Virus record (IMG/VR): IMGVR_UViG_3300033074_002207
Strand: one strand, 5' to 3'
Length of the DNA: 64,000 nucleotides
Origin: a virus
Taxonomy: Duplodnaviria; Heunggongvirae; Uroviricota; Caudoviricetes
The translations under genes were made by a program, and so were the position numbers. Shown here piece by piece: positions 4,586 through 59,476 of the stretch. The notes below the pieces were generated by a model, which made no database searches, was not told the origin of the DNA, and saw only the letters and a list, made by a program, of their open reading frames with translations. The stretch's first letter is position 1. The number at the start of each line of letters is the position of its first letter.

Positions 4586-5299
4586 ATGTTTGAGTCTGCT
4601 AAGCTGATAGTGCCAGAGTTTCCGCGTACCGCCCACCTGCCAGTGGAGCCGAACGCAGAGCACGATGACATTATAGCCACAGACTCGGAACTTTTGCTAT
4701 TTCTAAACTCCGAGATTTACGTCGAAGAAAAAATCGACGGCACTAATCTCGGAGTTGCTCTTGTTAATGGAGAACCCATTGTTCGCAATCGCTCCCATGT
4801 GTTGCGAAAGAGTTATAGTAAATGCAAAACTCCCTCTCAAATCCAATATCAGCGCTTTTGGTCATGGTTTTATGACAACACCAATAAATGGCGCAACCTG
4901 AATAAAGAGCTTGGGTTTGAAGCCAGTATCTATGGCGAATGGTTGTATGCTCGACATGTTGTTGCATACGACCGTCTGCCATCCCTCTTTATAGCATACG
5001 ATATTTACAATTCGGCTGAAAGAGAGTTTTTACCACCCAAAGAAAGTCGTGATGCACTTGCTTTTTGTGGATTTGAAATTCCACCATTGCTAGATATTGG
5101 TGTGTTTTCAACAGCAGAGTTAATTGCGCTGCGTGATGGCTCCAGTAAATATTCAACGGGTTCACCACGTGAAGGCATCTTTCTGAAATCATCAAATGGT
5201 CAACAGCGATATAAAATGGTGTCTCCCTGGTTTAAAAGCGACGATAATTGGAATAAACAACCGCTTGTTCGAAATGAGTTGGGTAAAATAACAAAATGA
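4586..5299 (+). CDS. RNA ligase, Rnl2/DraRnl-like nucleotidyltransferase
   Basis: motif I lysine EEKIDGTN plus N-terminal FPRTAHLP; the same pair of motifs recurs in ORF 51722. Confidence 0.6.
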   Translation: MFESAKLIVPEFPRTAHLPVEPNAEHDDIIATDSELLLFLNSEIYVEEKIDGTNLGVALVNGEPIVRNRSHVLRKSYSKCKTPSQIQYQRFWSWFYDNTNKWRNLNKELGFEASIYGEWLYARHVVAYDRLPSLFIAYDIYNSAEREFLPPKESRDALAFCGFEIPPLLDIGVFSTAELIALRDGSSKYSTGSPREGIFLKSSNGQQRYKMVSPWFKSDDNWNKQPLVRNELGKITK

Positions 5300-5487
5300 A
5301 AGTGAAATGCTGGGAATGCGACGGTTTAGGACGTATAAGAATAGAAAGAACCGACCCTGCGTTGCATATCTTTACTATGGGCATATCCTGGATAATGGAG
5401 AAACTAATTGAATCAGACCCATATGATGATAGATTTTGGCAAGATTGCCACATTTGTGACGGATATGGATGCCAAGTTCAAGACTAA
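5296..5487 (+). CDS. small zinc-finger protein with two DnaJ-type CxxCxGxG repeats
   Basis: CWECDGLGR and CHICDGYGC. Confidence 0.45.
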   Translation: MKVKCWECDGLGRIRIERTDPALHIFTMGISWIMEKLIESDPYDDRFWQDCHICDGYGCQVQD

Positions 5488-5493
5488 AGTAAA

Positions 5494-5793
5494 ATGAAAA
5501 AACCAACAAATAAATCGAACGGCTCTAACAAGGGCAACAGAAACAATCGGTCATACAAACCCAAAAAGGTTGATTCCGGCAAAGAGGAAGGAATCGAACT
5601 AGATGGCGTTGTTACAGAAAACCTGTCTAATGGACGCTTCCGCGTGAAACTCGAAAATGACATGGAAATTCTGGGGCATATCAGTGGAAAAATTCGTACT
5701 CACTATATTCGCATCATGATTGGCGATAAAGTGAAAATTGAAATGAGCCCATATGACTTGACAATGGGGCGTATCGTTTTTCGATACCGATAA
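5494..5793 (+). CDS. infA: translation initiation factor IF-1 with Lys/Asn-rich N-terminal extension
   Basis: S1-like OB core ...[52 protein letters not shown] closely parallels bacterial IF-1. Confidence 0.85.
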
Positions 5794-5795
5794 TT

Positions 5796-5857
5796 TTCCT
5801 CAAAATGTATTTTTTGAAAATATGTAGTTGACAATCCTCGTGGTTGTTGGCTAAAAT
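5796..5857 (+). promoter_or_regulatory. promoter: TTCCTCAAAAT upstream element + TTGACA-17/18-TAAAAT
   Basis: ttcctcaaaatg...ttgaca atcctcgtggttgttgg ctaaaat. Confidence 0.5.
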
Positions 5858-5934
5858 AAAATACGGCTATTAAGATTCTTCCTTCTAAAAATTATGGCAA
5901 AAAAACAGAGTCTTAGCTCTCCGTAAACGATTTT

Positions 5935-8100
5935 TTGGCTATGGAAAAGCTTCCTTCTAAAAACTTGACTATCAATCAACCAAACAGCTTTCCGCTCTCC
6001 AAAATAAGAATCATGAATAAACTGAATAACATCTACCTTCGTCGTCGCAACCGATTGGTTCTCGAAGCCAACAACGCATATGATACAACTTCTATGCTCT
6101 ATGTTGCCACTATGGTGAAGAATCTCGAAACGCTTGGATACACGTTTTCTGAGCGATTGATGCGAGAATGCACCCGTTTTACACTTCCAGAGCTTACTGC
6201 TTTTAATGCTTGGATTCTTTCTGCTATCAAGCAAGCTAAGGGCGCACATCGGGTACACAAACCTATGTATCCCAATTTTCCATCACAAGTTATGGAAATG
6301 TCTGAATTGGAGTTGTATGTCAATGCAATTTTCCACTACTGGACAGATGGCAAGTGGACACCACCGTCAGAAGTCAAGGAGCGATTCCCGTTAGTTGACA
6401 TCACTCAGTTCACACAAATCGACCTTGGGTCTGATGTTGACCGATTTAAGCTTTTCACCCAGTTGGCTTCAGCCAACGTTGCCTGGGGCGCTCAGGACAA
6501 AGAGGATGTAGAAGAGTTTGTTGTTGTTTATGGCGACAATCTACTTGCTCACATTCCTTCGAATGTTCCACAAAAGGAAAATGCTGCTGCTTTGTCACAA
6601 ATGCTCCTTGCCATCACAACAAATGCCGCTGATTTGGTGGGCAAATTCTGTCATACAGCCACCGACATTCTTCGGCTTGCTGTTGCTATGAGCGGTGGTG
6701 ATGTATCGCTTGCCGCAAAACCTCGATTTAAGAATTTTAAGAGAGCAGAGCGCGTATTTTTGCTTGAGTTGCTGAATGCTGTCCAAAATCCTGTTGAAGA
6801 TATGCTTCGATGGAAGGGCTACTGGCTGCGCCTTGGCGAAAAGTTACACGTTGGGGAATACGCTAAGCGATTCCCTAATGCTGTAGATGCATTTTCTAAA
6901 CTTCGAAACAACGAAAAGGTTGAAACTTTCAACAGTGTCGTTGAACAAGCTTTGCGTTATCATAACGCAGATACTTTGATGAAGACGCTAACTGGACGTG
7001 CTGGCGATTTTGCGCGACGGCTTGACCATGTTTTGCGCAACAACAAGAGTCAGCAGGAAGCTATCGTGGCTTCTTTCAAGACGGTTGCAAATAAGGTTTC
7101 TACACCCGTTTTATTACAGGTGATGACTCACTTCAAGCATCGAAACACACCGACTCGTTTGCGCACGTTCTTCCCCAAGGGTAATGTTGCTAAAGCGAAG
7201 GCGATTGAAAACAATTTGGCATCTATTCCGCAATCTGTGTGTCAAAGTGTGGTGGCTGTGTGTGAGAACGCTTTGATTGAGCGATTCCGGGCTTTGCCAG
7301 ACCTTGGCAATGTTTATTTGGATGACAAATTGGCAAACTACGGTGTGCCGTTTGCTCTTCGTTCATCTTCTAAGTCGTTGCGCACACTGGTGCGTGGTAG
7401 CCGGGTGCCTTTGGATGAAAAGTGTAAGATTCTTCGTTTCTTCTGTTGGTGGAAGAACGGCGGTGGACGCACTGACATTGACTTGTCAGCTTCGATGTTT
7501 GATGAGAACTTTCAGTTCCAAAGCTCTGTGGCATACTACAACTTGAAAGAATTGGGTGGTTGCCACAGTGGTGACATCACAGACGCTCCCGATGGTGCAA
7601 GCGAATTTATCGACATTGACATTGATAAAGTTCGCGCAAAAGGAACTCGTTACATTGTCATGACTTTAAACAGCTATTCACGTCAGCCGTTTTGCGACTT
7701 ACCCGAGTGTTTTGCAGGATGGATGTCTCGACAACATGCAGACTCTGGAGAAATTTATGAGCCTAAGACTGTTGCTGACAGAGTAGATATCGCCGCCGAT
7801 ACACAAATCGCAATCCCGCTCATTATTGACGTGGTAGACCGAGTTGTTATTTGGTGCGATATGGCTTTGAAGCGACATCCGTCGTTCCAGAACAATGTTC
7901 GTAGCAACCTGAGTGGTATTAACGTAACCCTGGAGTCCTTTGCAACGATGAAGAAGCCAAATCTATATGATTTGCTGAAGCTTCACGCCAAAGCCCGTGG
8001 CAACATTGTGGAATCACTTGAGCAAGCAAACACTGTTTTCTCAGTTGCCAACGACACTCCATACAAACTAGAAGAGATTTCGTCAGAGTATATGGTATAA
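5935..8100 (+). CDS. large hypothetical protein (721 aa) with C-terminal vWA-like MIDAS motif (DxSxS)
   Basis: long helical N-terminal region; TDIDLSASM motif at about residue 520; the true start may be an internal Met. Confidence 0.45.
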   Translation: MAMEKLPSKNLTINQPNSFPLSKIRIMNKLNNIYLRRRNRLVLEANNAYDTTSMLYVATMVKNLETLGYTFSERLMRECTRFTLPELTAFNAWILSAIKQAKGAHRVHKPMYPNFPSQVMEMSELELYVNAIFHYWTDGKWTPPSEVKERFPLVDITQFTQIDLGSDVDRFKLFTQLASANVAWGAQDKEDVEEFVVVYGDNLLAHIPSNVPQKENAAALSQMLLAITTNAADLVGKFCHTATDILRLAVAMSGGDVSLAAKPRFKNFKRAERVFLLELLNAVQNPVEDMLRWKGYWLRLGEKLHVGEYAKRFPNAVDAFSKLRNNEKVETFNSVVEQALRYHNADTLMKTLTGRAGDFARRLDHVLRNNKSQQEAIVASFKTVANKVSTPVLLQVMTHFKHRNTPTRLRTFFPKGNVAKAKAIENNLASIPQSVCQSVVAVCENALIERFRALPDLGNVYLDDKLANYGVPFALRSSSKSLRTLVRGSRVPLDEKCKILRFFCWWKNGGGRTDIDLSASMFDENFQFQSSVAYYNLKELGGCHSGDITDAPDGASEFIDIDIDKVRAKGTRYIVMTLNSYSRQPFCDLPECFAGWMSRQHADSGEIYEPKTVADRVDIAADTQIAIPLIIDVVDRVVIWCDMALKRHPSFQNNVRSNLSGINVTLESFATMKKPNLYDLLKLHAKARGNIVESLEQANTVFSVANDTPYKLEEISSEYMV

Positions 8101-8107
8101 TCCGTAT

Positions 8108-8341
8108 ATGCATTCTGATGAATCCATAGTTACACCGGAGCCCCACACATCTTTAAGTGGGGCTCCCGTTGTTTATATTGAGTCTTTCAGCGCGGAAATT
8201 CACCGAAGACCCGAAACGATGTCTGGAAGAAGGACATATCATTATGCTGACGGAACTTCGCTTACAATTTTATTGGGTAAGCACGAAGAAGACTTTCCTC
8301 AAAATCCAAAAACCACCGATAAACAATCAACAGAGCAATGA
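8108..8341 (+). CDS. small hypothetical protein (77 aa)
   Basis: ORF after TATAAT at 8094; weak. Confidence 0.25.
   Translation: MHSDESIVTPEPHTSLSGAPVVYIESFSAEIHRRPETMSGRRTYHYADGTSLTILLGKHEEDFPQNPKTTDKQSTEQ
8295..8323 (+). promoter_or_regulatory. promoter: TTCCTC-17-GATAAA
   Basis: ttcctc aaaatccaaaaaccacc gataaa; gene start 8338. Confidence 0.55.
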
Positions 8342-9750
8342 AAAACATTTGTGTTTCTTATGGAGACGGCATCGGTCCTGAAATTATGGATGCCACACTA
8401 AGGATTCTTAGAGCAGCAAACTTTCAGTTTAATGCTGATGAAATCCTCTTAGGTGAACAAGCTTATTTGGCTGGCTACCTAAATGGCGTGGAAGATTCGG
8501 CATGGGAAAAGATTTCAAGAAACAAGGTGCTGCTAAAGGCACCACTCACAACCCCAGAAGGGAAGGGTTTTAAGTCAGCTAATGTGACAATTCGTAAAAC
8601 CTATGGGTTGTTTGCAAATGTACGCCCTTGTATGTCGTATGCGCCTTATGTGCATGGAGCAGAAAAGCTGGATACGGTCATTATTCGAGAAAACGAAGAA
8701 GATTTATATTCGGGTATCGAACATCGGCAAACCACAGACGTATATCAATGCCTTAAGATTATGTCTGTTCCTGGGTGCGAGAAAATTGTTCGATTTGCAT
8801 TTGATTTTGCAGTTCGAAATCACAGACATAAAATCACCTGTTTAACCAAGGACAATATTATGAAGATGACTGATGGGTTGTTCCACAACATCTTCAAAGA
8901 AGTCGCACAGGAATACCCACAAATTGAGGCTGAACACCTGATTGTAGACATCGGCACTGCCAGAGTTGCCACTAGACCTGAGCGATTCGACATTGTGCTT
9001 GCTCCAAACCTATATGGTGATATCGTCTCTGATGTGGTGGCAGAAGCCGCTGGAAGCATTGGAATGGCTCCATCGGCAAACTACGGGGAACATTGTGCGA
9101 TGTTTGAAGCCGTGCATGGTTCAGCACCCGACATTGCTGGACGCGGCATTGCAAATCCATCTGCACTGCTCTTATCTTCGGTGATGATGTTGTCCTATCT
9201 TGGTGAAAACGAGATTGCCTCTGAGGTTCATAATGCCTGGTTGAAGGCGATTGAAGACGGCTGCGGCACTGGCGATATTAGCGATGCTAAAATGACTACC
9301 AGTGAATTTGCTGATGCCGTTATTGAACGATTAGGTGCAAGACCTGGCTACTTCCCGATTAAGAAGTATGCTAAGACAGATGGCAGTTTTCAATATCAAT
9401 ATCAAAGAAAGCAGACATCGAAAGAACTTGTTGGAGTTGATATCTTCCTCAATGAAGCTGATTTAAACTCTGAACAAATTGCCGAGAAGCTTAACAGCAT
9501 TTGTGACGATGGTGTTGGGTTGGCTGTTATCACAAACCGGGGTGTGAAAGTTTGGCCAGACCAAAATCCTTTCACTTTCTGTACAGACCACTGGCGATGC
9601 CGATTTATGTTTCAGAATGACGGAGCAAACTTTGCTCACATTTTGGAGCTACTTCAAAGAATCCATGACCAAAATCTGGATGTTATCAAATCTGAGCATT
9701 TGTATCAGTTTGACGGAGTGAATGGGTTTTCACAGGTGCAGGGGCAATAA
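8338..9750 (+). CDS. isocitrate/isopropylmalate dehydrogenase family protein (NAD(P)-dependent beta-decarboxylating dehydrogenase)
   Basis: SYGDGIGPEI nucleotide-binding motif and NLYGDIVSDVVAEAAGSIGMAPSANYG active-site region. Confidence 0.7.
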   Translation: MKNICVSYGDGIGPEIMDATLRILRAANFQFNADEILLGEQAYLAGYLNGVEDSAWEKISRNKVLLKAPLTTPEGKGFKSANVTIRKTYGLFANVRPCMSYAPYVHGAEKLDTVIIRENEEDLYSGIEHRQTTDVYQCLKIMSVPGCEKIVRFAFDFAVRNHRHKITCLTKDNIMKMTDGLFHNIFKEVAQEYPQIEAEHLIVDIGTARVATRPERFDIVLAPNLYGDIVSDVVAEAAGSIGMAPSANYGEHCAMFEAVHGSAPDIAGRGIANPSALLLSSVMMLSYLGENEIASEVHNAWLKAIEDGCGTGDISDAKMTTSEFADAVIERLGARPGYFPIKKYAKTDGSFQYQYQRKQTSKELVGVDIFLNEADLNSEQIAEKLNSICDDGVGLAVITNRGVKVWPDQNPFTFCTDHWRCRFMFQNDGANFAHILELLQRIHDQNLDVIKSEHLYQFDGVNGFSQVQGQ

Positions 9751-10297: not shown

Positions 10298-11251
10298 ATG
10301 AAAAAGACACAAAACCGAAACTTCTTTTATGATGAGCGCTCACTGAACTATTCATTTGGTGAAAAGCACCCATATAATTCTTTGCGCCTGAAAAACGCTG
10401 TGAACAACATTCAGTCTTACGGATTGGAATGTTGTAATTTTGAAGATGCTTCAGATGAAGACATGCTCTCAATTCACACCAGTCAATATATTGAACACTT
10501 AAAACAATGTTCAACCGGGGTGAAGATGGCATTTAAGTATGGAATTGGCGATAGTGATACACCCTCGTTTGAGGGCATGTATGACGCATGCCGAGCAGTC
10601 GCAGGTGCAACCAAGGCAGCAGCAGATGTTTTGTGTCGAGGCGATAATCTTGCATTCAACATGTCTGGTGGTTTGCATCATGCCCGGACTCATCGCGCCA
10701 GCGGATTTTGTGCTGTTGATGATATTGCGCTCGGAATCAACACTTTGTTGACTCGATTTGACAAAGTGGCATATTTGGATATTGACCTACATCATGGTGA
10801 TGGAGTTGAGGAGCGATATTTTGACAACCCACGTGTGTTAACAGCAAGTGTTCATCAGTTTGGATTCGGTTTTTACCCTGGCACTGGCGGTGATTCTGAA
10901 GATGGAAATTATATTAATGAACCACTGTTCGCCGGGACCAATGGTAAAGATTGGCTTCAGGCAGTATCGAGGCTAATTGATGGCATAAAGGCGTATAACC
11001 CAGAAGTTCTTGTGTTGCAATGTGGTGTAGATGCACATTATTCCGACCCACTTGGTTCATTAAACGTCACTGCAAAAGAATGGTTTGATGCGGTTCAACG
11101 AACAAGAATGCTAGACAAACCCATGTTGGTGTTGGGTGGTGGTGGATATGACCATAGAAATCCCGCGAGAATGTGGGCTGCTGCCGTTTTATCTTTGTGC
11201 GATATGGATTATGATGCCACCTGGCTCGATGATGACAGAAATTCCTCTTAA
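10298..11251 (+). CDS. histone deacetylase-family (HDAC/AcuC/APAH-type) Zn-dependent deacetylase
   Basis: DIDLHHGDGVEE and GGGGY motifs; CGVDAHYSDPLG. Confidence 0.8.
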   Translation: MKKTQNRNFFYDERSLNYSFGEKHPYNSLRLKNAVNNIQSYGLECCNFEDASDEDMLSIHTSQYIEHLKQCSTGVKMAFKYGIGDSDTPSFEGMYDACRAVAGATKAAADVLCRGDNLAFNMSGGLHHARTHRASGFCAVDDIALGINTLLTRFDKVAYLDIDLHHGDGVEERYFDNPRVLTASVHQFGFGFYPGTGGDSEDGNYINEPLFAGTNGKDWLQAVSRLIDGIKAYNPEVLVLQCGVDAHYSDPLGSLNVTAKEWFDAVQRTRMLDKPMLVLGGGGYDHRNPARMWAAAVLSLCDMDYDATWLDDDRNSS

Positions 11252-17941: not shown

Positions 17942-18018
17942 GCTGCATTGGTCAAAATGGTAAAGGCAACAGGCTCAGACCCTGAAATCTGAGAGTTCGA
18001 ATCTCTCATGCAGCACCA
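17942..18018 (+). tRNA. type-I tRNA with Gln-like D arm and anticodon loop ctCAGac (CAG, a Leu anticodon); non-canonical
   Basis: acceptor gctgcat/atgcagc, D arm gtcaaaatggtaaaggc, 4-bp anticodon stem cagg/cctg, short variable loop. Confidence 0.4.
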
Positions 18019-18020
18019 AT

Positions 18021-18097
18021 GCTCCTCTAGGCCAACTGGTAGAGTCACATAGCTCAAACCTATGCAAGTCTCGGTTCGAATCCGGGGAGGAGCACCA
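18021..18097 (+). tRNA. type-I tRNA with anticodon CAA (a Leu anticodon) in a short-variable-arm scaffold
   Basis: acceptor gctcctc/gaggagc, anticodon stem catag/ctatg with loop ctCAAac. Confidence 0.5.
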
Positions 18098-18100
18098 AAT

Positions 18101-18177
18101 GTCGCGTTAGCCAAATTGGTAAAGGCAACAGGTCGAGAACCTGAAATCTGAGAGTTCGAGTCTCTCACGCGACACCA
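18101..18177 (+). tRNA. type-I tRNA, near-duplicate of 17942 with anticodon loop tcGAGaa (GAG; C at position 33) - non-canonical
   Basis: acceptor gtcgcgt/acgcgac; differs from 17942 mainly in the acceptor and the anticodon loop. Confidence 0.35.
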
Positions 18178-18343: not shown

Positions 18344-18435
18344 AGCGGGAAGATGACTGTGGCGAAATTGGTAGCCGCTGGCCGTGACGAGCGGTCTGCT
18401 GAGATAAGAACAGCGTGCAGGTTCGAGTCCTGTCG
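18344..18435 (+). tRNA. type-II tRNA-like with non-canonical anticodon loop (tgacgag) and an A1:C72 mismatch; identity unresolved
   Basis: Leu-type D arm, long variable arm, T arm gcagg-ttcgagt-cctgt, CCA encoded. Confidence 0.35.
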
Positions 18436-18446
18436 GTCACACCATT

Positions 18447-21383: not shown

Positions 21384-21800
21384 ATGAAATACACAACATC
21401 ATTCATCGTATTTCCAAAACACTGTAATCATTTGCGCGAAGTCATTTTTGGCGGACAGTTTATGGCTGAAATGGATTTAGCCGCAGCCCATTGTATTCGA
21501 CGCCTTTTGTTTAAGGCAAATGAAGGAGTAGAGCATGCCGTTACTCATAAAGCCAATTTTGATTTCCAAAAGCCAGCCTATCTTGGCGACTTAATTGAAC
21601 TAGAGGCTGAGGTTAAGTCTCTGGGAGAAAAATCTATTGTTGTTCAGGTTGTGGCTTGGCGCAACCGCAAGAATGTTCGCGCTCGCATGGCTATTGGCGA
21701 TTTTGTTTTTGTGGCTATCGGTGCTGTTGACGACCTTACAGGACACCCGGAATTTTTACCCTACAAAAATCACGGTTTGACAGACGAAGATATTGAATAA
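21384..21800 (+). CDS. hot-dog fold acyl-CoA thioesterase-like protein
   Basis: VFPKHCNHLREVIFGGQFMAEMDLAAAH resembles the YciA/4HBT hot-dog signature. Confidence 0.45.
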   Translation: MKYTTSFIVFPKHCNHLREVIFGGQFMAEMDLAAAHCIRRLLFKANEGVEHAVTHKANFDFQKPAYLGDLIELEAEVKSLGEKSIVVQVVAWRNRKNVRARMAIGDFVFVAIGAVDDLTGHPEFLPYKNHGLTDEDIE

Positions 21801-23157
21801 GATGAGTGACCAGCCCAGTTATTTGATAGACATTCCACCAGCCACCATCAGTGGTGAGTTGCACATGGGGCATATGTTCAGCTATGCCCAAATGGATTTT
21901 GTTGCCCGATATCATCAAATGATGGGTAAAGAATTGATTTACCCATTTTGTTACGATAACAATGGTTTGCCTACCGAAAAACTCGCACACAAAAACCAAG
22001 CATATGGGAAAGATGAAATTTTATCTTTTTCTCAGGATTGGTCGCAAGGATATTTGCAAACCTTCGAATCATTAGGGCTTGCACTATCTCCACAATCTTA
22101 TAATACTTTTGACTCCAATGCCGTTGCTCTGGCACAAATGTCATTTCAAGATTTGAAAGACAAGGGGCTTGTTTACAAAGCTCATACTGAATTTTTCTGG
22201 TGTCCAGTAACTCAGGTTTCGGTTTCGCAATCAGAGTTGACTGATGACATGCGTTATGAACGCTCTGGCGAGAAGGTTGAAATACGCAGTGGCGAAGGGT
22301 ATTTTGTTCGTATGATTGACCATTTGCCCGAGATTCGTCAAGCCATTGAAGAAATTCAGTGGCACCCGGAGCATTTCAAGCATAGACTGCTTCGATGGTT
22401 GGATGATTTGAAATTTGATTGGTCGATAAGCCGCGAAAGAAACTTTGGAATTCCTATTCCTGGAGAAGAGGGATTGGTTTTTGACACATGGTTTACAAGC
22501 AGCCTGTCGCCTCAAATGGCTTATTGTGCAGGTGGAAACACGCCCACATTAGACGTTCCGACTTTTGATGCTAGATTTCAGGCTCATGATATTATCAGAA
22601 CATGGGCTTTGTTTACGATTGTCAAATCGCTATATCACAACAACCGAATTCCTTGGAAGCATATTGTTATTAGCGGGCATGCAGTAGATAAACAAGGCAA
22701 AAAGCTGTCGAAAAGCTCACCAAATTACAAGCCTGCAACTTATTATTTTGAGCAATGGGGCGCTGACCCACTTCGTTTTTGGGCTGCTCAAAATCCAGTA
22801 GGCACAGACACCAAGCTCGATGAATCTGTAATGCTGCACGGGAAGAAGCTAATCAATAAAATTAAAAATGCTCGTAGATTCCTTGGTATGCAGTCAGATG
22901 CTGAAACTTGCGATGAGTGGATGAGTCAATGGATGTCCGTCAAAGCCGAGTTCTGCAACATGATGGAAAGCTTCAACTGGAGTGATGCGCTCAAGTTATT
23001 AACCAAATTTTTCTGGCATACTTATTGTGATATCTTTATTGAAGCCAACAAGCAGCAACCTGCAACTTTAACTTTGTCTTTGATAATGGATGATATGCTT
23101 GATTGCTATTCAATCTTTATGCCTGAAGTTAAACCCATACAATGTGAGATAAAATGA
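21793..23157 (+). CDS. catalytic-core-only class Ia aminoacyl-tRNA synthetase homologue (ValRS/IleRS/LeuRS family); lacks CP1 editing and anticodon-binding domains
   Basis: PPATISGELHMGHMF (HIGH), ARYHQMMGK, FDTWFTSS, GKKLSKS (KMSKS); 454 aa. Confidence 0.7.
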   Translation: MNKMSDQPSYLIDIPPATISGELHMGHMFSYAQMDFVARYHQMMGKELIYPFCYDNNGLPTEKLAHKNQAYGKDEILSFSQDWSQGYLQTFESLGLALSPQSYNTFDSNAVALAQMSFQDLKDKGLVYKAHTEFFWCPVTQVSVSQSELTDDMRYERSGEKVEIRSGEGYFVRMIDHLPEIRQAIEEIQWHPEHFKHRLLRWLDDLKFDWSISRERNFGIPIPGEEGLVFDTWFTSSLSPQMAYCAGGNTPTLDVPTFDARFQAHDIIRTWALFTIVKSLYHNNRIPWKHIVISGHAVDKQGKKLSKSSPNYKPATYYFEQWGADPLRFWAAQNPVGTDTKLDESVMLHGKKLINKIKNARRFLGMQSDAETCDEWMSQWMSVKAEFCNMMESFNWSDALKLLTKFFWHTYCDIFIEANKQQPATLTLSLIMDDMLDCYSIFMPEVKPIQCEIK

Positions 23158-23705: not shown

Positions 23706-23721
23706 ATAAATGGAGACAAAA

Positions 23722-24409
23722 ATGAAAAAGAGCATAATTGAAATTCGGGCTGCTGAAGGCGGCGCAGAATCAAAGTTGTTAGTTAAAGACCAGTTTGCTA
23801 TTTACGCAAAGGCATGCACGCTGGAGTGTCTTTGACATCACCATCCTTGAAGAAAGAGATGGGTTTATTTCATTTTTGATAGAGGGTAAAAACACTTCTA
23901 TTTTTAACCGTGAATCGGGAAGCCATGTTTGGCAAAGAATATCCCCTACTGAAAAACGCGGTCGAACTCACACGTCCTTAATCACTGTTGCAGTATTGCC
24001 TGTTCCAGAAGAAAATGACATTGTTTTAAACGATAATGATTTAGAGATATCTAATTATTGTTCTTCTGGTCATGGTGGGCAGCACATTCAAAAGAATCAG
24101 ACGGCTGTGAGGATTGTTCACAAACCGACTGGCATCACAGTTACTTGTCAAAATGAACGCTCTCAGTTTCAGAACAAAAAATTTGCTCTAGATTCATTGA
24201 GAGCCAAGTTGAAAGATGTAAACGACCAAAAACAACAAAAAAATGTCACCGCTATGCGAAAAGACCAAATTGGCATCGGAGAGCGCGGAGGAAAAATTCG
24301 AACAATTCGAGTAAAAGACAATATGGTAATTTGCAATGTGACGAGCAATACCAAATCTTTCAAGGAATATCAAAAAGGAAAGATACGATTCGATAATGGC
24401 AAAGAATAA
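23722..24409 (+). CDS. prfB: peptide chain release factor 2 (compact form) with programmed +1 ribosomal frameshift (frame 0: 23722-23832, then +1 from 23834)
   Basis: ORF0 MKKSIIEIRAAEGGAESKLLVKDQFAIYAKACTLECL ends at CTT TGA C; an internal SD-like GGAG lies 3 nt upstream of CTT; the downstream frame carries the GGQ motif (SSGHGGQHIQKNQTAVRIVHKPTGI). Confidence 0.8.
23830..23836 (+). other. programmed +1 frameshift site CUU UGA C
   Basis: GGAGTGT CTT TGA C parallels E. coli prfB AGGGGGTAT CTT TGA C. Confidence 0.75.
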
Positions 24410-24977
24410 AAAAGTTGCAATATTAGTCGGCAAAACTGGGCGAGGAACCAATATGATGAACCTGGTCCAGTTTTGTAAATCACACCAAATTGATGCTGAA
24501 ATCAGTCTGATTGTTTCGCCAGCCCAAAATGCTGCTACAGAATGGGCGTCAGGGAAAAACATCCCGGTTGTTGTTATAGACAAGCTAAATAATCCGAAAT
24601 ATACGACACAGCTTCTTGATGCTTTGCATGATGTCGATATCATTTGTTTAGCTGGATATCTGTATTTACTACCAAGCGAAATTATCGAGCACTACCCCAA
24701 TCGTATCCTTAATATCCACCCATCTTTGCTTCCTAAGTTCGGCGGCAAGGGAATGTATGGACTCAATGTTCATAAAGCAGTTATTGAAGCTGGCGAGACA
24801 GAAAGTGGCTGTACAGTTCATTTGGTTACGCCAGAATATGACCAGGGAAAAATTGTGTTACAAGTCAAATGTAAGGTTAAAGAAGATGACACTCCTGAAA
24901 CCCTTGCATCCAGAATTTTGCTATTGGAACATGCGGCGTATCCTATTGCGCTAGAGTGGCTTTGTCTACAGTGTTAA
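24396..24977 (+). CDS. purN: phosphoribosylglycinamide formyltransferase (GAR transformylase)
   Basis: NIHPSLLPKFGGKGMYG...ESGCTVHLVTPEYDQGKIVLQ. Confidence 0.75.
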   Translation: MAKNKKVAILVGKTGRGTNMMNLVQFCKSHQIDAEISLIVSPAQNAATEWASGKNIPVVVIDKLNNPKYTTQLLDALHDVDIICLAGYLYLLPSEIIEHYPNRILNIHPSLLPKFGGKGMYGLNVHKAVIEAGETESGCTVHLVTPEYDQGKIVLQVKCKVKEDDTPETLASRILLLEHAAYPIALEWLCLQC

Positions 24978-40034: not shown

Positions 40035-40829
40035 ATGATTTATGCAATTTCAGATATACACGGCGACAAAAAGCAGGCAATAAAATTGCTTCAAAAACAC
40101 AACGTCATTGATGGCGAGAATCAATGGATTGCCAAAACCTCTACACTTGTGGTTAATGGTGATTCAACAGACCGTGGGACTGATGGTATAGGTGTACTTC
40201 GCTTTTTTTACAATCTTGCTCAAGAGGCAGAATCACATGGCGGAAGGGTTATTCACACGATGGGGAATCACGATGCTTTAATTTTGTGTATAGCCCTACA
40301 TGCTTACAAGGAAGATTATAACTACGAACACTCATATGTTTTCAGGGGCAATGGCGGAAAGGCACACGAGGCTATATCTCTTTCCAGACTGCATGATTTG
40401 CGAAAATATGTACAGTCTTTTCCATTGATGTGTCGTGTTGATGATGTTTTATTTCAACATGCCGATGGTTTTGAAATTTATGAGTTAGCGTCAAAGGATG
40501 GCACCACGCCAGAAGAAAAGATTAGAGCAGCAAATGATTATTGCCGCTCAAAAGCCAATACTGCTTGGGGTGCATGGAATTTGTTTTATGACTTAACCGA
40601 CGAGCGTTATTGGCGAAATAGTGGCGAGTTGATACCAGAGTATCTGGAGTCTTTCGGTGCGCGTATGGTTGTGCATGGACACACGGGTTTTCATGGCGAT
40701 TCACCTCATTTCTACCTAGATAATCAGGTTGTTAATATTGATGCCATTTTGAGTCGTGGATACCGGGCAGATGAAGACAGAGGATGCGTGCTGGTGATTG
40801 ATAGCCCCGGAACTGATATCGTTGTCTAG
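40035..40829 (+). CDS. calcineurin-like metallophosphoesterase (ApaH/PP-type Ser/Thr phosphatase family)
   Basis: DIHGD, GDSTDRG, GNHD motifs. Confidence 0.8.
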   Translation: MIYAISDIHGDKKQAIKLLQKHNVIDGENQWIAKTSTLVVNGDSTDRGTDGIGVLRFFYNLAQEAESHGGRVIHTMGNHDALILCIALHAYKEDYNYEHSYVFRGNGGKAHEAISLSRLHDLRKYVQSFPLMCRVDDVLFQHADGFEIYELASKDGTTPEEKIRAANDYCRSKANTAWGAWNLFYDLTDERYWRNSGELIPEYLESFGARMVVHGHTGFHGDSPHFYLDNQVVNIDAILSRGYRADEDRGCVLVIDSPGTDIVV

Positions 40830-40864: not shown

Positions 40865-41128
40865 ATGTTTAGAGGCGTCAAAACCCCAATTCCAACCTAT
40901 CTCTCGATAGATATTGATTTTTTCGGATATCCATTTCTTGCCAGTTTAGAAGAGTTTGAGTTGTTTTTAGAGGGTGTTGCCAAATTTTCATCTGATAACA
41001 ATATTTTAATTCAAGCTATGGTCAACCACCCACGACTGAAAGTCGTGGGCTTGTTACAAGCGCCGAAGGCGCGAACAATAGGGAGATTGACTGCTCCCCT
41101 AAAGAAGCTATATTCTTACTGGCATTAA
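40865..41128 (+). CDS. hypothetical ORF whose 3' half overlaps the IS right-end hairpin; possibly a 5' remnant of a gene disrupted by the IS
   Basis: SIDIDFFGYPF (SxDxD) motif; the ORF reads into the IS end. Confidence 0.3.
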   Translation: MFRGVKTPIPTYLSIDIDFFGYPFLASLEEFELFLEGVAKFSSDNNILIQAMVNHPRLKVVGLLQAPKARTIGRLTAPLKKLYSYWH

Positions 41129-42262
41129 AGTCAGCATTCTCTGTGTGTCCGCAGGACACACAGAGAAACAAAGATTGACTCTTTCTATTGGCCTTTTCAC
41201 AATGTCCACATTCGCTACACGTCTGCGACGTGTAGCGAGCAGGGATAATAGCTAAAGGCACTCCATAGAGTTCAGCTTTGTAAGCAATGTAGCTTCTGAG
41301 TTGGGCGAACGCCCAACTCATTCTTTGACTTCTATTCACCCGCTTGACCGTTACTCTTTTATTGATATTTGTTAGCTCTTCGAGAGCTAACAAATATCCG
41401 AGTGCCTTTGCTTTTGTTACTAGAAGTTTTGAAATGACGTGATTGACGTCTCTTCTGAATCTGGATTCTTTTTGTCCAGCTTTCTTGACTCTTCTCATTG
41501 CAGAGCGCGTTCCGCGCTTCTGCAATCGTTGGCGATGAGCATGATACTGCTTTCGTTTCTTCTCGATGTGCTCTCCTGAGAACACATCTCCCAAAGAACT
41601 TACGGCAATTTTGTTCACTCCCAAGTCGATGCCTATGACGCCCTTGGCGTCATAGGCTGATGCTGTTGGGATTTCCAAGTTGCAGAGCAAGTAGAACTTG
41701 TTGTTTTGATAGACTAAATCTACTTGTCCTCTTCTAAATTTGAATCTGTCTTTGTCGTAGACTTGGATTGGAATTTCCATTCTCCCATCATTAGTCCAGA
41801 TACTGACAGTCCCTGAATCCCTGAAAGTAATCACTCTGTCGTCGTAGACGACAGCAGAAGTCTTCTTGAAGAAGTTCCTCTGATGTCTATTTCTCTTCAC
41901 TTTATAGGAGTCGCTCACGACTCCTATAGCTCGTACAACGAGCTGGGAAGAGAAGTCGGGCAGCGCTTCGCGCTGCCCTCTATACACCATATGATGTAGC
42001 TGAACTTTTTGATACTCTTTGGCTTCAAATGCTTGATTGGAAATATCGTTGCAAATATCGTTGAAAGTATTCATAGTGCGCAGAAGCGCACTATGTTGAA
42101 TCTCATTTGTATTGAGCTTCACTTTCAAAGTGATATTCACAATAAGGATTTTATGGTAGAAATGCTTTTTGTCCTTGTTGTTTTGAACAAATGTGCTATA
42201 ATTATTTCAGAGGCTCGATTCCTCCCACGATTAAAGTCGTGGGTTTCCTCTCGCAATTATCA
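41000..42262 (-). mobile_element. IS200/IS605-family insertion sequence carrying only tnpB (IS1341-like), with subterminal hairpins at both ends
   Basis: hairpins cccacgac-tgaaa-gtcgtggg at about 41027-41050 and cccacga-ttaaa-gtcgtggg at about 42225-42245; boundaries approximate. Confidence 0.6.
41022..42140 (-). CDS. tnpB: TnpB (OrfB) RuvC-like RNA-guided nuclease / IS605 accessory protein
   Basis: C-terminal RuvC-III plus zinc finger ...ARYTSQTCSECGH...CVSCGHTENADFNASKNI. Confidence 0.8.
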   Translation of the reverse strand: MNITLKVKLNTNEIQHSALLRTMNTFNDICNDISNQAFEAKEYQKVQLHHMVYRGQREALPDFSSQLVVRAIGVVSDSYKVKRNRHQRNFFKKTSAVVYDDRVITFRDSGTVSIWTNDGRMEIPIQVYDKDRFKFRRGQVDLVYQNNKFYLLCNLEIPTASAYDAKGVIGIDLGVNKIAVSSLGDVFSGEHIEKKRKQYHAHRQRLQKRGTRSAMRRVKKAGQKESRFRRDVNHVISKLLVTKAKALGYLLALEELTNINKRVTVKRVNRSQRMSWAFAQLRSYIAYKAELYGVPLAIIPARYTSQTCSECGHCEKANRKSQSLFLCVSCGHTENADFNASKNIASLGEQSISLLFAPSALVTSPRLSVVGG

Positions 42263-43537: not shown

Positions 43538-43586
43538 GATAGTGAAATATGGCTATTATTAAATCTGCTGTAGATAATGACACATA
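43510..43586 (+). repeat. direct repeat copy 2 (functional pncB promoter and start)
   Basis: gatttcctcaaaatgatttggggtaagatagtgaaatatggctattattaaatctgc. Confidence 0.65.
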
Positions 43587-57731: not shown

Positions 57732-59390
<1,659 letters not shown>

Positions 59391-59412: not shown

Positions 59413-59443
59413 CAAGCCCCCAAAATTGGGGGCTTGTTTTTTT
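59413..59443 (+). terminator. intrinsic terminator (caagccccc-aaaatt-gggggcttg + T7) overlapping the next promoter
   Basis: sequence. Confidence 0.75.
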
Positions 59444-59470
59444 CCTCAATACCACAATGCGCTGTATAAT
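59442..59470 (+). promoter_or_regulatory. promoter: TTCCTC-17-TATAAT
   Basis: ttcctc aataccacaatgcgctg tataat. Confidence 0.6.
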
Positions 59471-59476
59471 AAAGAC

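What the first reader, a model, noticed from the sequence alone, without database searches (positions are those of the whole stretch)
21793..23157. Minimal class Ia aminoacyl-tRNA synthetase (catalytic core only, ValRS/IleRS/LeuRS-type motifs)
This 454-aa protein carries PPATISGELHMGHMF (the ValRS-like PPxxxTGxLHMGH), ARYHQMMGK, DTWFTSS and GKKLSKS. Only about 275 residues separate HIGH from KMSKS, so the CP1 editing domain is absent, and there is no anticodon-binding domain. It sits a few kb from the redundant Leu-decoding tRNA set. It could be an editing-free, anticodon-independent synthetase, which would be a route to mischarging or recoding. It could equally be an aaRS-derived regulatory protein.
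Basis: partly seen in the sequence, partly recalled or inferred. Interest (0 to 1): 0.65.

Follow-up and report, generated by a model that had tools for sequence, protein, structure and literature searches.

The report
Stripped-down phage valyl-tRNA synthetase without proofreading
A huge bacteriophage encodes a half-size valine tRNA-charging enzyme that keeps an intact active site but has lost its proofreading domain and part of its tRNA-binding end; it belongs to a conserved phage family that has not, as far as I could find, been described.

Summary
The ORF is real: 21802-23157 on the + strand, 451 aa from the ATG. It is not a fragment. It belongs to a family with conserved length (about 420-490 aa), found on IMG/VR viral contigs and metagenome contigs of up to 735 kb. 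The family is under strong purifying selection (dN/dS about 0.1). It derives from the archaeal-type ValRS lineage. The HIGH and KMSKS motifs and all seven mapped valine-pocket positions are identical to E. coli and T. thermophilus ValRS in every member that covers them. The CP1 editing domain is precisely excised, a second small insertion is gone, and the protein stops halfway through the helix-bundle anticodon-binding domain. No separate CP1 or C-terminal piece exists in the window, or in a complete 634,780-bp relative that has two tRNA-Val genes and no other ValRS. The best reading is a functional, editing-free ValRS that charges tRNA-Val. This is inferred and has not been shown. The same phages also carry a CP1-less 422-aa LeuRS family, so miniaturised class Ia synthetases are a general trait of this group. 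I rate it a new variant of a known kind, of moderate to high interest.

The parts
21802..23157 (+). CDS of the miniaturised ValRS (451 aa from the ATG; an in-frame TTG at 21793 would give 454 aa). The stop is TGA at 23155-23157.
   Evidence: Pfam tRNA-synt_1 6e-50. NCBIfam ValRS PRK13208 2e-106, 357 bits against a cutoff of 738. AF2 model pLDDT 92.8, pTM 0.90.
21835..21855 (+). PPATISG (P12-G18): the ValRS N-terminal signature that forms part of the valine pocket (P12 and P13 correspond to Tth P41 and P42).
   Evidence: PPPT[VI]SG is the motif of 60 of 78 nearest full-length ValRSs.
21862..21873 (+). HMGH (H21-H24): the HIGH ATP-binding signature.
   Evidence: G23 and H24 are invariant and H21 is present in 38 of 38 covered members.
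21955..21957 (+). D52, equivalent to Tth ValRS D81 / Ec D80 (binds the amino-acid alpha-amino group).
   Evidence: Invariant in 39 of 39 members. The role assignment is from memory of the 1GAX paper.
22225..22278 (+). Linker SQSELTDDMRYERSGEKV (residues 142-159) that replaces the whole CP1 editing domain (E. coli ValRS ~190-367).
   Evidence: MAFFT map against EcValRS, HMMER alignment to 1GAX and blastp/tblastn blocks. Model pLDDT here is about 84-87.
22453..22479 (+). PIPGEEGLV (residues 218-226): the junction where a second ValRS insertion (Ec ~440-470) is deleted.
22483..22491 (+). DTW (D228-W230). W230 corresponds to Tth W456, a wall of the valine pocket.
   Evidence: Invariant in 39 of 39 members.
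22585..22605 (+). HDIIRTW (H262-W268). D263, I264 and W268 correspond to Tth D490, I491 and W495 in the valine pocket.
   Evidence: Invariant in 39 of 39 members.
22702..22716 (+). KLSKS (K301-S305): the KMSKS catalytic loop.
   Evidence: K301 and K304 are invariant.
22822..23118 (+). Retained proximal half of the helix-bundle anticodon-binding domain (residues 341-439, four helices).
   Evidence: DSSP helices at 341-363, 371-389, 393-418 and 422-439. Pfam Anticodon_1 profile 6-80 of 148, 29.5 bits against a cutoff of 25.1. Aligns to Ec ValRS ~632-765.
22855..22881 (+). NKIKNARRF (residues 352-360), the first bundle helix. K353, N356 and R359 correspond to Tth K581, N584 and R587.
   Evidence: K353 and N356 are present in 39 of 39 members; position 359 is K or R in 37 of 39.
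23014..23052 (+). WHTYCDIFIEANK (residues 405-417), the ValRS-specific 'W..FCDWYLE..K' helix. W405, C409, E414 and K417 correspond to Tth W642, C646, E651 and K654.
   Evidence: W and C are present in 39 of 39 members, E and K in 38 of 39, and all are identical to E. coli ValRS. The motif is absent from the phage IleRS and LeuRS sequences.
23119..23154 (+). Short, poorly conserved C-terminal tail. The protein stops where full-length ValRS continues for another 80-190 residues or more.
   Evidence: pLDDT falls to 34-68. Most family members end here. Ec 766-951 has no counterpart.

Best explanation
This is a genuine, expressed, phage-encoded valyl-tRNA synthetase reduced to its working minimum. 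It keeps the Rossmann catalytic fold, a stub of the CP core, the stem-contact fold and the proximal four helices of the anticodon-binding bundle. It most likely activates valine with ATP in a canonical ValRS pocket. It then most likely transfers valine to tRNA-Val (phage-encoded and/or host), reading A35-C36 with the retained helices. With CP1 gone it has no post-transfer proofreading, so any Thr-tRNA-Val it makes goes uncorrected. The phage probably uses it to keep Val-tRNA-Val supplied during infection, alongside its many tRNAs, a complete ArgRS, tRNA-repair enzymes and a release-factor homolog. What is shown: the architecture, the conservation, the purifying selection, the absence of a split partner, and the presence of tRNA-Val genes in relatives. 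What is inferred: valine specificity, tRNA-Val as the acceptor, lack of editing activity, and the physiological role.
For: (1) The closest profiles and structures are ValRS: NCBIfam PRK13208 2e-106, PDB 1GAX 5e-31, and Foldseek TMq 0.86 to 1GAX. (2) All catalytic residues and all seven mapped pocket positions are identical to E. coli and T. thermophilus ValRS in every member covering them, across 44-67% identity. The two neighbouring substitutions, N44T and T46S, form the normal PPPT[VI]SG motif of the parent full-length ValRS lineage. (3) The ValRS-specific helix-bundle residues are retained. (4) The model is compact and confident: pLDDT 92.8, pTM 0.90. (5) The family has a conserved length and end point and dN/dS of 0.08-0.12. 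(6) No CP1 or C-terminal fragment was found in the window, in flanks of relatives, or in the complete 634,780-bp LR745206. (7) In LR745206 the family member is the only ValRS homolog, and the genome has tRNA-Val(UAC) and tRNA-Val(GAC), both with A73, A35 and C36. In L008 a tRNA-Val(GAC) ends 3 nt before the start codon. (8) There is precedent that CP1 is dispensable for aminoacylation: M. mobile LeuRS naturally lacks CP1, and its nonapeptide linker can replace CP1 in E. coli LeuRS (PMC3643597). The model matches that enzyme's structure, 3ZIU, at TMq 0.85. (9) The surrounding genes concern translation: 23 tRNAs, a complete ArgRS, RtcB, RNA ligases and an RF homolog.
Against: There are no biochemical data for any member. 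The distal half of the anticodon-binding domain and any C-terminal tRNA-binding domain are missing. From memory of Fukai et al. 2003, which I could not retrieve, deleting only the C-terminal coiled-coil of T. thermophilus ValRS already costs several hundred-fold in kcat/KM, so efficient tRNA charging is not assured. I could not superpose the model on the ValRS-tRNA complex, so the claim that the retained helices form the A35-C36 pocket rests on sequence equivalence and recollection. tRNA-Val is adjacent in only one of about 16 loci; where tRNAs are nearby they are mostly tRNA-Leu. The window itself contains no tRNA-Val. Scores fall below the curated ValRS cutoffs because half the protein is missing.
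Confidence: 0.6

Rival explanations
1. It is a valine-activating enzyme whose acceptor is not the 3' end of tRNA-Val. Like GluQRS/YadB (which modifies tRNA-Asp at Q34), MshC or amino acid:carrier-protein ligases, it would make Val-AMP and pass valine to another RNA position, a small molecule or a protein.
For: Truncated class I synthetase paralogs with new acceptors are an established pattern (GluQRS is cited in PMC9437257). Loss of distal tRNA-binding elements is conserved. No tRNA-Val lies near the gene in most loci.
Against: The stem-contact fold and the ValRS-specific anticodon-helix residues are conserved as strongly as the active site, which is unexpected if tRNA-Val were no longer the substrate. 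No conserved neighbouring gene suggests a pathway. A parallel CP1-less LeuRS family exists in the same phages, so ordinary streamlined synthetases are the more economical reading.
Confidence: 0.13
2. It is a relaxed-specificity ValRS that valylates tRNAs other than tRNA-Val. Candidates share A35 and A73, for example tRNA-Ile, tRNA-Met or the phage's short Leu-anticodon tRNAs. The result would be deliberate mistranslation or recoding.
For: Half of the anticodon-binding domain is missing. A35 and A73 are shared identity elements, and full-length ValRS is known to mischarge tRNA-Ile and tRNA-Met (PMC9976931). Unusual 74-78-nt tRNAs with Leu anticodons recur near the gene in the window, L005 and L006.
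Against: The short Leu-anticodon tRNAs are closest to the window's own type-II tRNA-Leu genes (0.75-0.79 identity) and not to tRNA-Val. These phages also encode their own miniaturised LeuRS, a more natural partner for them. The helix residues matching the ValRS anticodon helices are invariant. Leu-to-Val substitution across the proteome would damage the phage's own proteins. Proximity to Leu tRNAs is largely shared synteny within one clade and is absent in 6 of 11 other loci.
Confidence: 0.07
3. It is a functional ValRS core that needs a separately encoded partner: a tRNA-binding protein, or a trans-editing factor such as the adjacent hotdog-fold thioesterase.
For: A 4HBT thioesterase gene ends one base before the start codon and is also adjacent in L001-L005. 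A small zinc-ribbon ORF overlaps the stop codon. Split or trans-acting synthetase modules are known: the A. aeolicus split LeuRS (mentioned in PMC3643597) and free-standing editing proteins (PMC11415595).
Against: The thioesterase is 5 kb away in L006, about 306 kb away in LR745206, and absent from the flanks of 12 other loci. The zinc-ribbon ORF has no detectable homolog next to other members, and the 68-aa ORF downstream is shared only with the close relative L005. No CP1-like or ValRS C-terminal sequence exists elsewhere in the window or in LR745206. Hotdog thioesterases are not known to hydrolyse aminoacyl-tRNA esters.
Confidence: 0.1
4. It is a non-catalytic decoy or regulator derived from ValRS, for example one that sequesters tRNA-Val or senses valine.
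For: Synthetase-derived regulators exist, such as HisZ (from general knowledge). Truncation could reduce catalytic competence.
Against: HIGH, KMSKS and every pocket residue are invariant across 44-67% identity with dN/dS about 0.1. Non-catalytic paralogs typically lose these residues.
Confidence: 0.03
5. It is an artefact: the N-terminal fragment of a full-length gene broken by an assembly or frameshift error, or a decaying pseudogene.
For: Its length is about half that of ValRS, and it scores below the curated ValRS cutoffs.
Against: Identical sequence appears in four independent assemblies. More than 100 homologs of 423-492 aa share the same end point. Two internal deletions are precise and in frame. 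There is no ValRS-like sequence downstream in any frame. Purifying selection is strong. The fold is confident and compact.
Confidence: 0.01

Closest known systems
Archaeal-type valyl-tRNA synthetase (NCBIfam PRK13208; nearest full-length relatives P0148, P0152, 730-830 aa)
   Same: It has the same signature motifs (PPPT[VI]SG-x-LH-x-GH, KMSKS), the same valine-pocket residues and the same 'W..FCD..[IL]E..K' anticodon helix. Identity is 31-37% in two collinear blocks.
   Different: It lacks CP1 (about 150-180 aa), a second small insertion, the distal half of the anticodon-binding domain and the C-terminal extension. It scores 357 bits against a curated cutoff of 738. It is phage-encoded, whereas P0148 sits among cellular genes.
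Mycoplasma mobile LeuRS (PDB 3ZIU), the natural CP1-less class Ia synthetase
   Same: CP1 is replaced by a short linker while the catalytic core stays intact. Structural match is TMq 0.85. M. mobile LeuRS is active in aminoacylation and is linked to mistranslation (PMC3643597 and its reference to Li et al. 2011).
   Different: That enzyme is a LeuRS of a cellular parasite, and from memory it keeps its anticodon-binding and C-terminal tRNA-binding domains. This protein is ValRS-derived, viral, and also truncated at the C-terminus.
Minimal MetRS core (e.g. T. thermophilus MetRS, 500 aa; PDB 2D54, 1A8H)
   Same: Its overall size and architecture are the closest among solved structures (TMq 0.82, TMt 0.75): Rossmann fold, small CP, stem-contact fold and helix bundle, with no editing domain.
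   Different: MetRS has a complete anticodon-binding bundle and a methionine pocket. Sequence identity is only about 20%, and the motifs here are ValRS-type.
GluQRS / YadB (truncated GluRS paralog that modifies tRNA-Asp)
   Same: It is a class I synthetase shortened at the tRNA-anticodon-binding end and retaining amino-acid activation.
   Different: GluQRS lacks the whole anticodon-binding domain and is GluRS-derived. Here half of the domain remains with its ValRS-specific residues. There is no evidence for a non-canonical acceptor.
Aminoacyl-tRNA synthetases of huge phages (Al-Shayeb et al. 2020, PMC7162821)
   Same: The genomic setting is the same: genomes or contigs of up to 735 kb with dozens of tRNAs and up to 15 synthetases. 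LR745206, an uncultured-phage genome of the same size class, carries a family member.
   Different: The main text of that paper treats phage synthetases as host-related full enzymes and does not describe loss of editing or anticodon-binding domains. I did not read its supplement.
CP1-less 412-442-aa LeuRS family of the same huge phages (e.g. LR745206 404831-406099)
   Same: It shows the same design: a class Ia core with HIGH and KMSKS intact, no CP1 and a truncated C-terminus. It co-occurs on the same contigs and aligns end to end with the window protein at 24% identity.
   Different: It is LeuRS-derived (MFPYPSG motif, leuS_bact best hit). No Anticodon_1 Pfam domain is recorded for any of the 120 listed members. 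The family is much more tightly conserved (71-86% identity).

Membership tests
Class I aminoacyl-tRNA synthetase, subclass Ia | Rossmann-fold catalytic domain with HIGH and KMSKS signatures | tested here: met
   Pfam tRNA-synt_1 6e-50. HMGH and KLSKS are present and invariant in the family. Foldseek probability is 1.00 to ValRS, IleRS, LeuRS and MetRS structures.
Valyl-tRNA synthetase | ValRS-type amino-acid pocket (Tth P41, P42, D81, W456, D490, I491, W495) and the PPP[NT][VI][TS]G motif | tested here: met
   All seven positions are identical in every member covering them (39 of 39; P41 and P42 in 38 of 38) and identical to E. coli ValRS. PPPT[VI]SG is shared with 60 of 78 nearest full-length ValRSs.
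Valyl-tRNA synthetase | Reaches the curated whole-protein score of a ValRS equivalog model | tested here: not met
   The best model, PRK13208, gives 357 bits against a cutoff of 738; TIGR00422 gives 245 against 612. The shortfall is explained by the missing domains.
Valyl-tRNA synthetase | CP1 post-transfer editing domain inserted in the catalytic fold | tested here: not met
   The alignments skip Ec ~190-367 / Tth ~200-345. An 18-residue linker takes its place. No CP1 homolog exists elsewhere in the window or in LR745206.
Valyl-tRNA synthetase | Complete helix-bundle anticodon-binding domain plus C-terminal tRNA-binding extension | tested here: not met
   Only Anticodon_1 profile positions 6-80 of 148 are present. 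The protein ends at Ec ~765 of 951. The proximal helices and their ValRS-specific residues are retained.
Valyl-tRNA synthetase | Catalyses Val-AMP formation and valylation of tRNA-Val | not testable with these tools
   This needs ATP-PPi exchange and aminoacylation assays. Indirect support comes from relatives: two tRNA-Val genes in LR745206 and one abutting the gene in L008.
Naturally CP1-less class Ia synthetases (M. mobile LeuRS type) | CP1 replaced by a short peptide linker in an otherwise intact catalytic core | tested here: met
   Linker residues 142-159. TMq is 0.85 to 3ZIU. The literature definition is in PMC3643597.
Naturally CP1-less class Ia synthetases (M. mobile LeuRS type) | Leucine-specific enzyme with retained C-terminal tRNA-binding domain | tested here: not met
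   The motifs and profiles are ValRS-type and the C-terminus is truncated.
Truncated synthetase paralogs with non-canonical acceptors (GluQRS/YadB type) | Complete absence of the anticodon-binding domain, and an acceptor other than tRNA A76 | tested here: inconclusive
   The domain is half present. The acceptor cannot be determined computationally.
Gene fragment or pseudogene | The remainder of the gene lies in another frame or nearby, with variable end points among homologs and relaxed selection | tested here: not met
   No further ValRS homology was found. The end point is conserved. dN/dS is 0.08-0.12. Fifteen of 16 loci are intact.

The most novel reading that the evidence does not exclude
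The miniaturised ValRS, the miniaturised LeuRS and the unusual short (type-I-like) tRNAs with Leu anticodons together form a phage-private charging system with altered identity rules. In the extreme version, the ValRS core has lost the distal anticodon-binding elements and valylates A35/A73 tRNAs beyond tRNA-Val, so the phage deliberately changes what some codons mean, or tolerates a statistical proteome, during infection.
Probability: 0.05. Interest if true: 0.9.

Novelty: new variant of a known kind. Interest (0 to 1): 0.58.

Why it matters
ValRS is the textbook 'double-sieve' enzyme. Its CP1 editing domain is regarded as essential for keeping threonine out of valine codons, and editing-defective ValRS mutants harm both bacteria and mammalian cells (PMC11415595). 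If this family is active, as its conservation suggests, it would be the first natural ValRS I know of that lacks CP1 and half of its anticodon-binding domain. Two questions then become directly testable: how small a working class Ia synthetase can be, and how much proofreading a virus needs over a single infection cycle. The pattern in one complete relative is informative, because its IleRS keeps CP1 while its ValRS and LeuRS lose it. This suggests that selection for editing depends on the specific near-cognate threat. From memory of published E. coli metabolite pools, Val greatly exceeds Ile, whereas Thr is well below Val. These compact enzymes (about 450 aa) are also attractive scaffolds for engineered or orthogonal translation systems. 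A cultured Stenotrophomonas jumbo phage (RAS14) carries a comparable short ValRS, so experiments are feasible.

Tried and rejected
1. Frameshift or fragment artefact: rejected.
2. Split gene with CP1 or the C-terminus encoded elsewhere: tblastn with E. coli ValRS, its isolated CP1, and nine nearest full-length ValRSs found nothing further in the window, in flanks of relatives, or in the whole LR745206 genome.
3. The adjacent 4HBT thioesterase as a conserved trans-editing partner: rejected, because the adjacency holds only in the window's own lineage.
4. The downstream zinc-ribbon and 68-aa ORFs as conserved partners: no homologs lie next to other members, apart from the 68-aa ORF in L005.
5. 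N44T and T46S as signs of changed amino-acid specificity: rejected, because they are the normal motif of the parent ValRS lineage.
6. A functional link to the Leu tRNA array: weakened. The short Leu-anticodon tRNAs are tRNA-Leu-like, tRNA neighbours are absent in 6 of 11 further loci, and the phages have their own short LeuRS.
7. General domain loss in all of this phage's synthetases: rejected. The window's ArgRS is complete, and the IleRS of LR745206 keeps CP1 and passes its curated cutoff.
8. Searches that led nowhere. Fukai et al. 2003 (ValRS-tRNA contacts) is not held. The afdb50 fold library was unavailable. Megablast of 15 kb of the window against phage records found only a tRNA-sized match. 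Six literature searches found no description of a natural CP1-less ValRS; a seventh search looked for ValRS-tRNA contact data.
9. The 232-aa GluRS-like ORF of L005 has no counterpart in the window.
Full report
OBSERVATION. The ORF exists as described. It runs from 21793 (TTG) or 21802 (ATG) to 23157 on the + strand. The ATG at 21802 is the probable start: it lies one base after the TAA of the upstream gene, and homologs begin at the equivalent position. From the ATG the protein is 451 aa. The quoted motifs sit at PPATISG 21835-21855, HMGH 21862-21873, DTW 22483-22491 and KLSKS 22702-22716, and HIGH and KMSKS are 280 residues apart. The gene's G+C content (41.3%) matches the window's (42.6%). 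The protein matches Pfam tRNA-synt_1 (6e-50, in two stretches) and Anticodon_1 (8e-7; 29.5 bits against a gathering score of 25.1, but only profile positions 6-80 of 148). Among NCBIfam models the four best are all ValRS. The archaeal-type model PRK13208 leads at 2e-106, but its 357 bits fall short of the curated 738. The best solved relative is T. thermophilus ValRS, 1GAX.

WHAT IS MISSING AND WHAT IS KEPT. I aligned the protein and its family with E. coli ValRS (951 aa, taken from NC_000913). Relative to that enzyme, the window protein lacks:
- the first ~34 residues;
- the entire CP1 editing domain (Ec ~190-367), replaced by the 18-residue linker SQSELTDDMRYERSGEKV;
- a second insertion (Ec ~440-470);
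- an E. coli-specific insert after KMSKS;
- everything beyond Ec ~765.
It keeps both halves of the Rossmann fold, the CP-core strands that flank CP1, the stem-contact region and about 100 residues of the helix bundle. An AlphaFold2 model built from a 39-sequence family alignment is compact and very confident (mean pLDDT 92.8, pTM 0.90). It shows four helices at 341-363, 371-389, 393-418 and 422-439 after the catalytic domain. Foldseek places the model closest to three structures: ValRS 1GAX (TMq 0.86, TMt 0.47), the naturally CP1-less M. mobile LeuRS 3ZIU (TMq 0.85) and the 500-aa T. thermophilus MetRS (TMq 0.82, TMt 0.75). The domain is cut roughly in half.

NOT A FRAGMENT. The same sequence occurs in four independent assemblies. 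A search of 5.8 billion proteins returned 845 hits. The top 120 are all 423-492 aa apart from one 644-aa fusion, at 45-68% identity, and many lie on contigs of 444-673 kb. One of them is the 634,780-bp uncultured-phage record LR745206. IMG/VR viral contigs of 343-533 kb also carry members. Members share the internal junctions, and most end at the same point. An exhaustive profile search of 1.84 billion cluster representatives shows that the short form is a tight clade of about ten 50%-identity clusters. The next hits are ordinary 730-1100-aa ValRSs that match in two or three stretches. tblastn with E. coli ValRS, and with nine of the nearest full-length ValRSs, finds nothing else ValRS-like in the window or in the flanks of relatives. 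Nei-Gojobori dN/dS for the closest informative pairs (80% amino-acid identity) is 0.08-0.12, and 15 of 16 loci examined have intact ORFs.

ACTIVE SITE AND SPECIFICITY. I mapped T. thermophilus numbering through the HMMER alignment and E. coli numbering through MAFFT. The following are identical to both reference ValRSs in every member that covers them (39 of 39; the first three positions in 38 of 38, because one sequence is N-terminally partial):
- the HIGH residues (H21, G23, H24);
- both lysines of KMSKS (K301, K304);
- the seven pocket positions P41, P42, D81, W456, D490, I491 and W495, which here are P12, P13, D52, W230, D263, I264 and W268.
The only differences near the pocket are N44T and T46S, which give PPPT[VI]SG. 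That is the motif of 60 of the 78 nearest full-length ValRS homologs of 700 aa or more. It is therefore a trait of the parent lineage, not a change of specificity. P41 is the residue that excludes isoleucine in the 1GAX description; I state this from memory of Fukai et al. 2000. I conclude that the enzyme most probably activates valine and, like all ValRSs, threonine at a low rate.

tRNA-BINDING END. The first bundle helix (NKIKNARRF, 352-360) has K353 and N356 conserved in 39 of 39 members. The helix WHTYCDIFIEANK (405-417) has W405 and C409 conserved in 39 of 39, and E414 and K417 in 38 of 39. All of these residues are identical to E. coli ValRS K644, N647, W709, C713, E718 and K721. The 'W..FCD' signature is absent from the phage IleRS and LeuRS sequences. 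Valine identity rests mainly on A35, C36 and A73 (PMC9976931), and in the T. thermophilus complex A35-C36 sit in a pocket on the helix bundle (as summarised in PMC6372641). My recollection is that residues at or near Tth 581-588 and 646-650 line that pocket. I could not retrieve Fukai et al. 2003 to verify this, so this step is inference. The distal bundle and any C-terminal elbow-binding domain are missing. tRNA affinity is therefore probably reduced, but anticodon reading is probably retained.

NO SPLIT PARTNER; A COMPLETE RELATIVE. I downloaded all of LR745206. It has 59 tRNA genes, including tRNA-Val(UAC) and tRNA-Val(GAC), both with A73. Its class Ia set is:
- the family member (443 aa), which is the only ValRS homolog;
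- a MetRS of ~470 aa directly beside it;
- an IleRS of 735 aa that retains CP1 and passes its curated cutoff (674 against 621 bits);
- a LeuRS of 422 aa that also lacks CP1 and the C-terminal domain.
An isolated E. coli CP1 probe against all 50,697 phage records hit only ordinary full-length ValRS or LeuRS genes, mostly in host-like records. It hit nothing in LR745206 or in the Stenotrophomonas phages. In relative L008, a tRNA-Val(GAC) ends 3 nt before the start codon. The short LeuRS is itself a very large, tightly conserved family: the top 120 hits are 385-472 aa (all but two between 412 and 442) at 71-86% identity. It occurs on the same huge contigs as the short ValRS, for example the 518,809-, 518,834- and 132,459-bp contigs. 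Miniaturisation of class Ia synthetases is therefore a general feature of these phages, but a selective one: the window's own ArgRS (46083-47753, 556 aa) has all of its domains.

ORIGIN AND RELATED FORMS. The nearest full-length relative, P0148 (763 aa), lies among cellular genes: F-type ATP synthase, LytB and restriction-modification systems. There are CP1-less forms that keep a full Anticodon_1 domain, namely P0174 (617 aa) and P0239 (645 aa). P0239 lies on a contig of mostly unannotated, phage-like genes. The cultured Stenotrophomonas jumbo phage RAS14 has a 449-aa annotated 'valyl-tRNA synthetase'. It has the bacterial PPPNITG motif and ends at the same point, but carries a different and larger internal deletion that removes the CP core as well. 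Domain loss in phage ValRS has therefore probably happened more than once.

CONTEXT. The window is a translation-rich stretch of a huge phage. It holds 23 tRNAs, the ArgRS, RtcB, two RNA ligases, a release-factor homolog, a PurN-like formyltransferase and an NAD-salvage set. A hotdog-fold (4HBT) thioesterase abuts the gene upstream. That adjacency is confined to the window's lineage: the thioesterase is 5 kb away in L006, ~306 kb away in LR745206, and absent from the flanks elsewhere. I reject it as a conserved partner. tRNA genes lie near the gene in the window and in eight of the 15 relatives examined. They are mostly tRNA-Leu, which probably reflects shared synteny, and 6 of 11 IMG/VR loci have none within 6 kb. 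The short (77-nt) tRNAs with Leu anticodons are most similar to the window's own type-II tRNA-Leu genes (0.75-0.79 identity), not to tRNA-Val.

MECHANISM (BEST EXPLANATION, CONFIDENCE ABOUT 0.6). The protein is a working, editing-free ValRS. It forms Val-AMP in a canonical pocket, docks tRNA-Val through the stem-contact fold and the retained anticodon helices, and transfers valine to A76. Without CP1, Thr-tRNA-Val cannot be cleared in cis, which is how ValRS normally edits (PMC9023258). There is precedent that CP1 is dispensable for charging: M. mobile LeuRS lacks CP1, and its linker can replace CP1 in E. coli LeuRS (PMC3643597). Why might the loss be tolerated? An infection cycle is short. 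In addition, from memory of published E. coli metabolite pools, valine far exceeds threonine, so uncorrected Thr misacylation would be rare. Valine also far exceeds isoleucine, which would explain why the phage IleRS keeps CP1. That rationale is inference. The rivals, with my confidences, are: a non-tRNA or non-A76 acceptor (0.13), dependence on an unidentified partner (0.10), relaxed tRNA specificity or recoding (0.07), a non-catalytic role (0.03) and an artefact (0.01).

COMPARISON AND NOVELTY. By ancestry and active site this is a ValRS. It fails the membership features 'CP1 present', 'complete anticodon-binding domain' and 'reaches the equivalog cutoff'. It works most like the M. mobile CP1-less LeuRS and has the proportions of a minimal MetRS. 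IMG and GenBank annotators already label members 'valyl-tRNA synthetase', and huge-phage synthetases are known (PMC7162821). However, that paper's main text does not describe the truncated architecture, and neither do the reviews or the six literature searches I ran for it. BFVD holds no comparable viral structure. I rate it a new variant of a known kind, with interest 0.58: surprising to synthetase specialists and directly testable, but still without functional data.

Noticed in passing
window 23710-24409 (+); site at ~23814-23836; also L005 ~10790-10820: The release-factor homolog downstream is split between two frames at ctGGAGtgtCTTTGAC: an SD-like GGAG, a 3-nt spacer, then CUU UGA C. This is the classic prfB (RF2) +1 programmed-frameshift cassette. 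Frame 0 encodes METKMKKSIIEIRAAEGG...ACTLECL*, and the +1 frame continues DITILEERDGF... through the GGQ domain. The same cassette and the same two frames are conserved in L005. The protein lacks RF domain 1 and has 'SPT' where RF2 has SPF and RF1 has PxT.
   Followed up: partly
window 17942-18018, 18021-18097, 18101-18177 (+); L005 5212-5451; L006 64-138 and 14685-14758: These tRNAs carry Leu anticodons (CAG, CAA, GAG) but are only 74-78 nt long with a 5-nt variable loop, so they lack the long variable arm of bacterial tRNA-Leu. They sit beside normal 84-89-nt tRNA-Leu genes. All have A73, and they are most similar (0.75-0.79) to the window's own type-II tRNA-Leu genes. They may be substrates of the phages' C-terminally truncated LeuRS.
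   Followed up: partly
LR745206 404831-406099 (L019, locus coordinates 4831-6099): A 422-aa LeuRS (MFPYPSG..HIGH, KMSKS) lacks CP1 and the C-terminal domain. It represents a very large, tightly conserved family: the top 120 hits are 385-472 aa (mostly 412-442) at 71-86% identity. The family occurs on the same huge-phage contigs as the short ValRS.
   Followed up: partly
LR745206 382047-384254 and ~32.6-34.0 kb (-): The same complete phage genome has an IleRS (735 aa) that retains CP1 and passes its curated cutoff. It also has a normal-size MetRS (~470 aa) directly beside the short ValRS, followed by an EF-G-like GTPase ORF. Editing-domain loss is therefore selective: ValRS and LeuRS lose it, IleRS does not.
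   Followed up: partly
L024 5893-7242 (Stenotrophomonas phage RAS14, OP752703; also phage CM1): A cultured 320-kb jumbo phage carries a 449-aa annotated ValRS with the bacterial-type PPPNITG motif. It ends at the same point as the window protein but has a different, larger internal deletion that removes the CP core as well as CP1. This is probably an independent miniaturisation, and it offers an experimentally tractable system.
   Followed up: partly
window 46083-47753 (+): A complete ArgRS (556 aa) with the N-terminal, catalytic and DALR anticodon-binding domains.
   Followed up: partly
window 4586-5299, 40035-40829, 49459-50631, 51722-52783 (+): A candidate tRNA-repair toolkit: two RNA-ligase-family proteins, a calcineurin-like phosphoesterase and RtcB. 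This is consistent with countering host anticodon nucleases.
   Followed up: no
window 21384-21800 (+): A hotdog-fold (4HBT / FlK-like) thioesterase ends one base before the synthetase start codon. Homologs exist in L005, L006 and LR745206, but the adjacency is not conserved. Its function in the phage is unknown.
   Followed up: yes
window 24396-24977 (+): A PurN-like formyltransferase (Formyl_trans_N only, 193 aa) overlaps the end of the RF-like gene. It could act in purine synthesis or be a truncated Met-tRNA formyltransferase; I did not resolve this.
   Followed up: no
window 41022-42140 (-); L006 13044-14147: IS605 OrfB / TnpB (Cas12f1-like TNB domain) genes lie inside the phage genome, in the window and near the synthetase in a relative.
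   Followed up: no
window 43549-44754, 47790-48470, 50708-51685, 59426-60409 (+): Genes related to NAD and ADP-ribose metabolism: NAPRTase, a Macro-domain protein, PRPP synthetase and a NUDIX hydrolase. This looks like an NAD-replenishment or counter-defence set.
   Followed up: no
window 18353-18444 (+): ARAGORN calls a 92-nt tRNA-Arg(ACG), which is unusually long for tRNA-Arg. It may have an extended variable region or an insertion.
   Followed up: no
L035 6001-7287 (IMGVR_UViG_3300045125_000119): This family member matches by tblastn over residues 7-417, but its longest ATG-initiated ORF across the middle of the match is only 89 aa. It may be a pseudogene, a sequencing error or a phage using an alternative genetic code.
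   Followed up: no
window 8338-9750, 10298-11251, 57744-59390 (+): The phage encodes an isocitrate dehydrogenase, a histone-deacetylase-family enzyme and a GroEL-type chaperonin.
   Followed up: no
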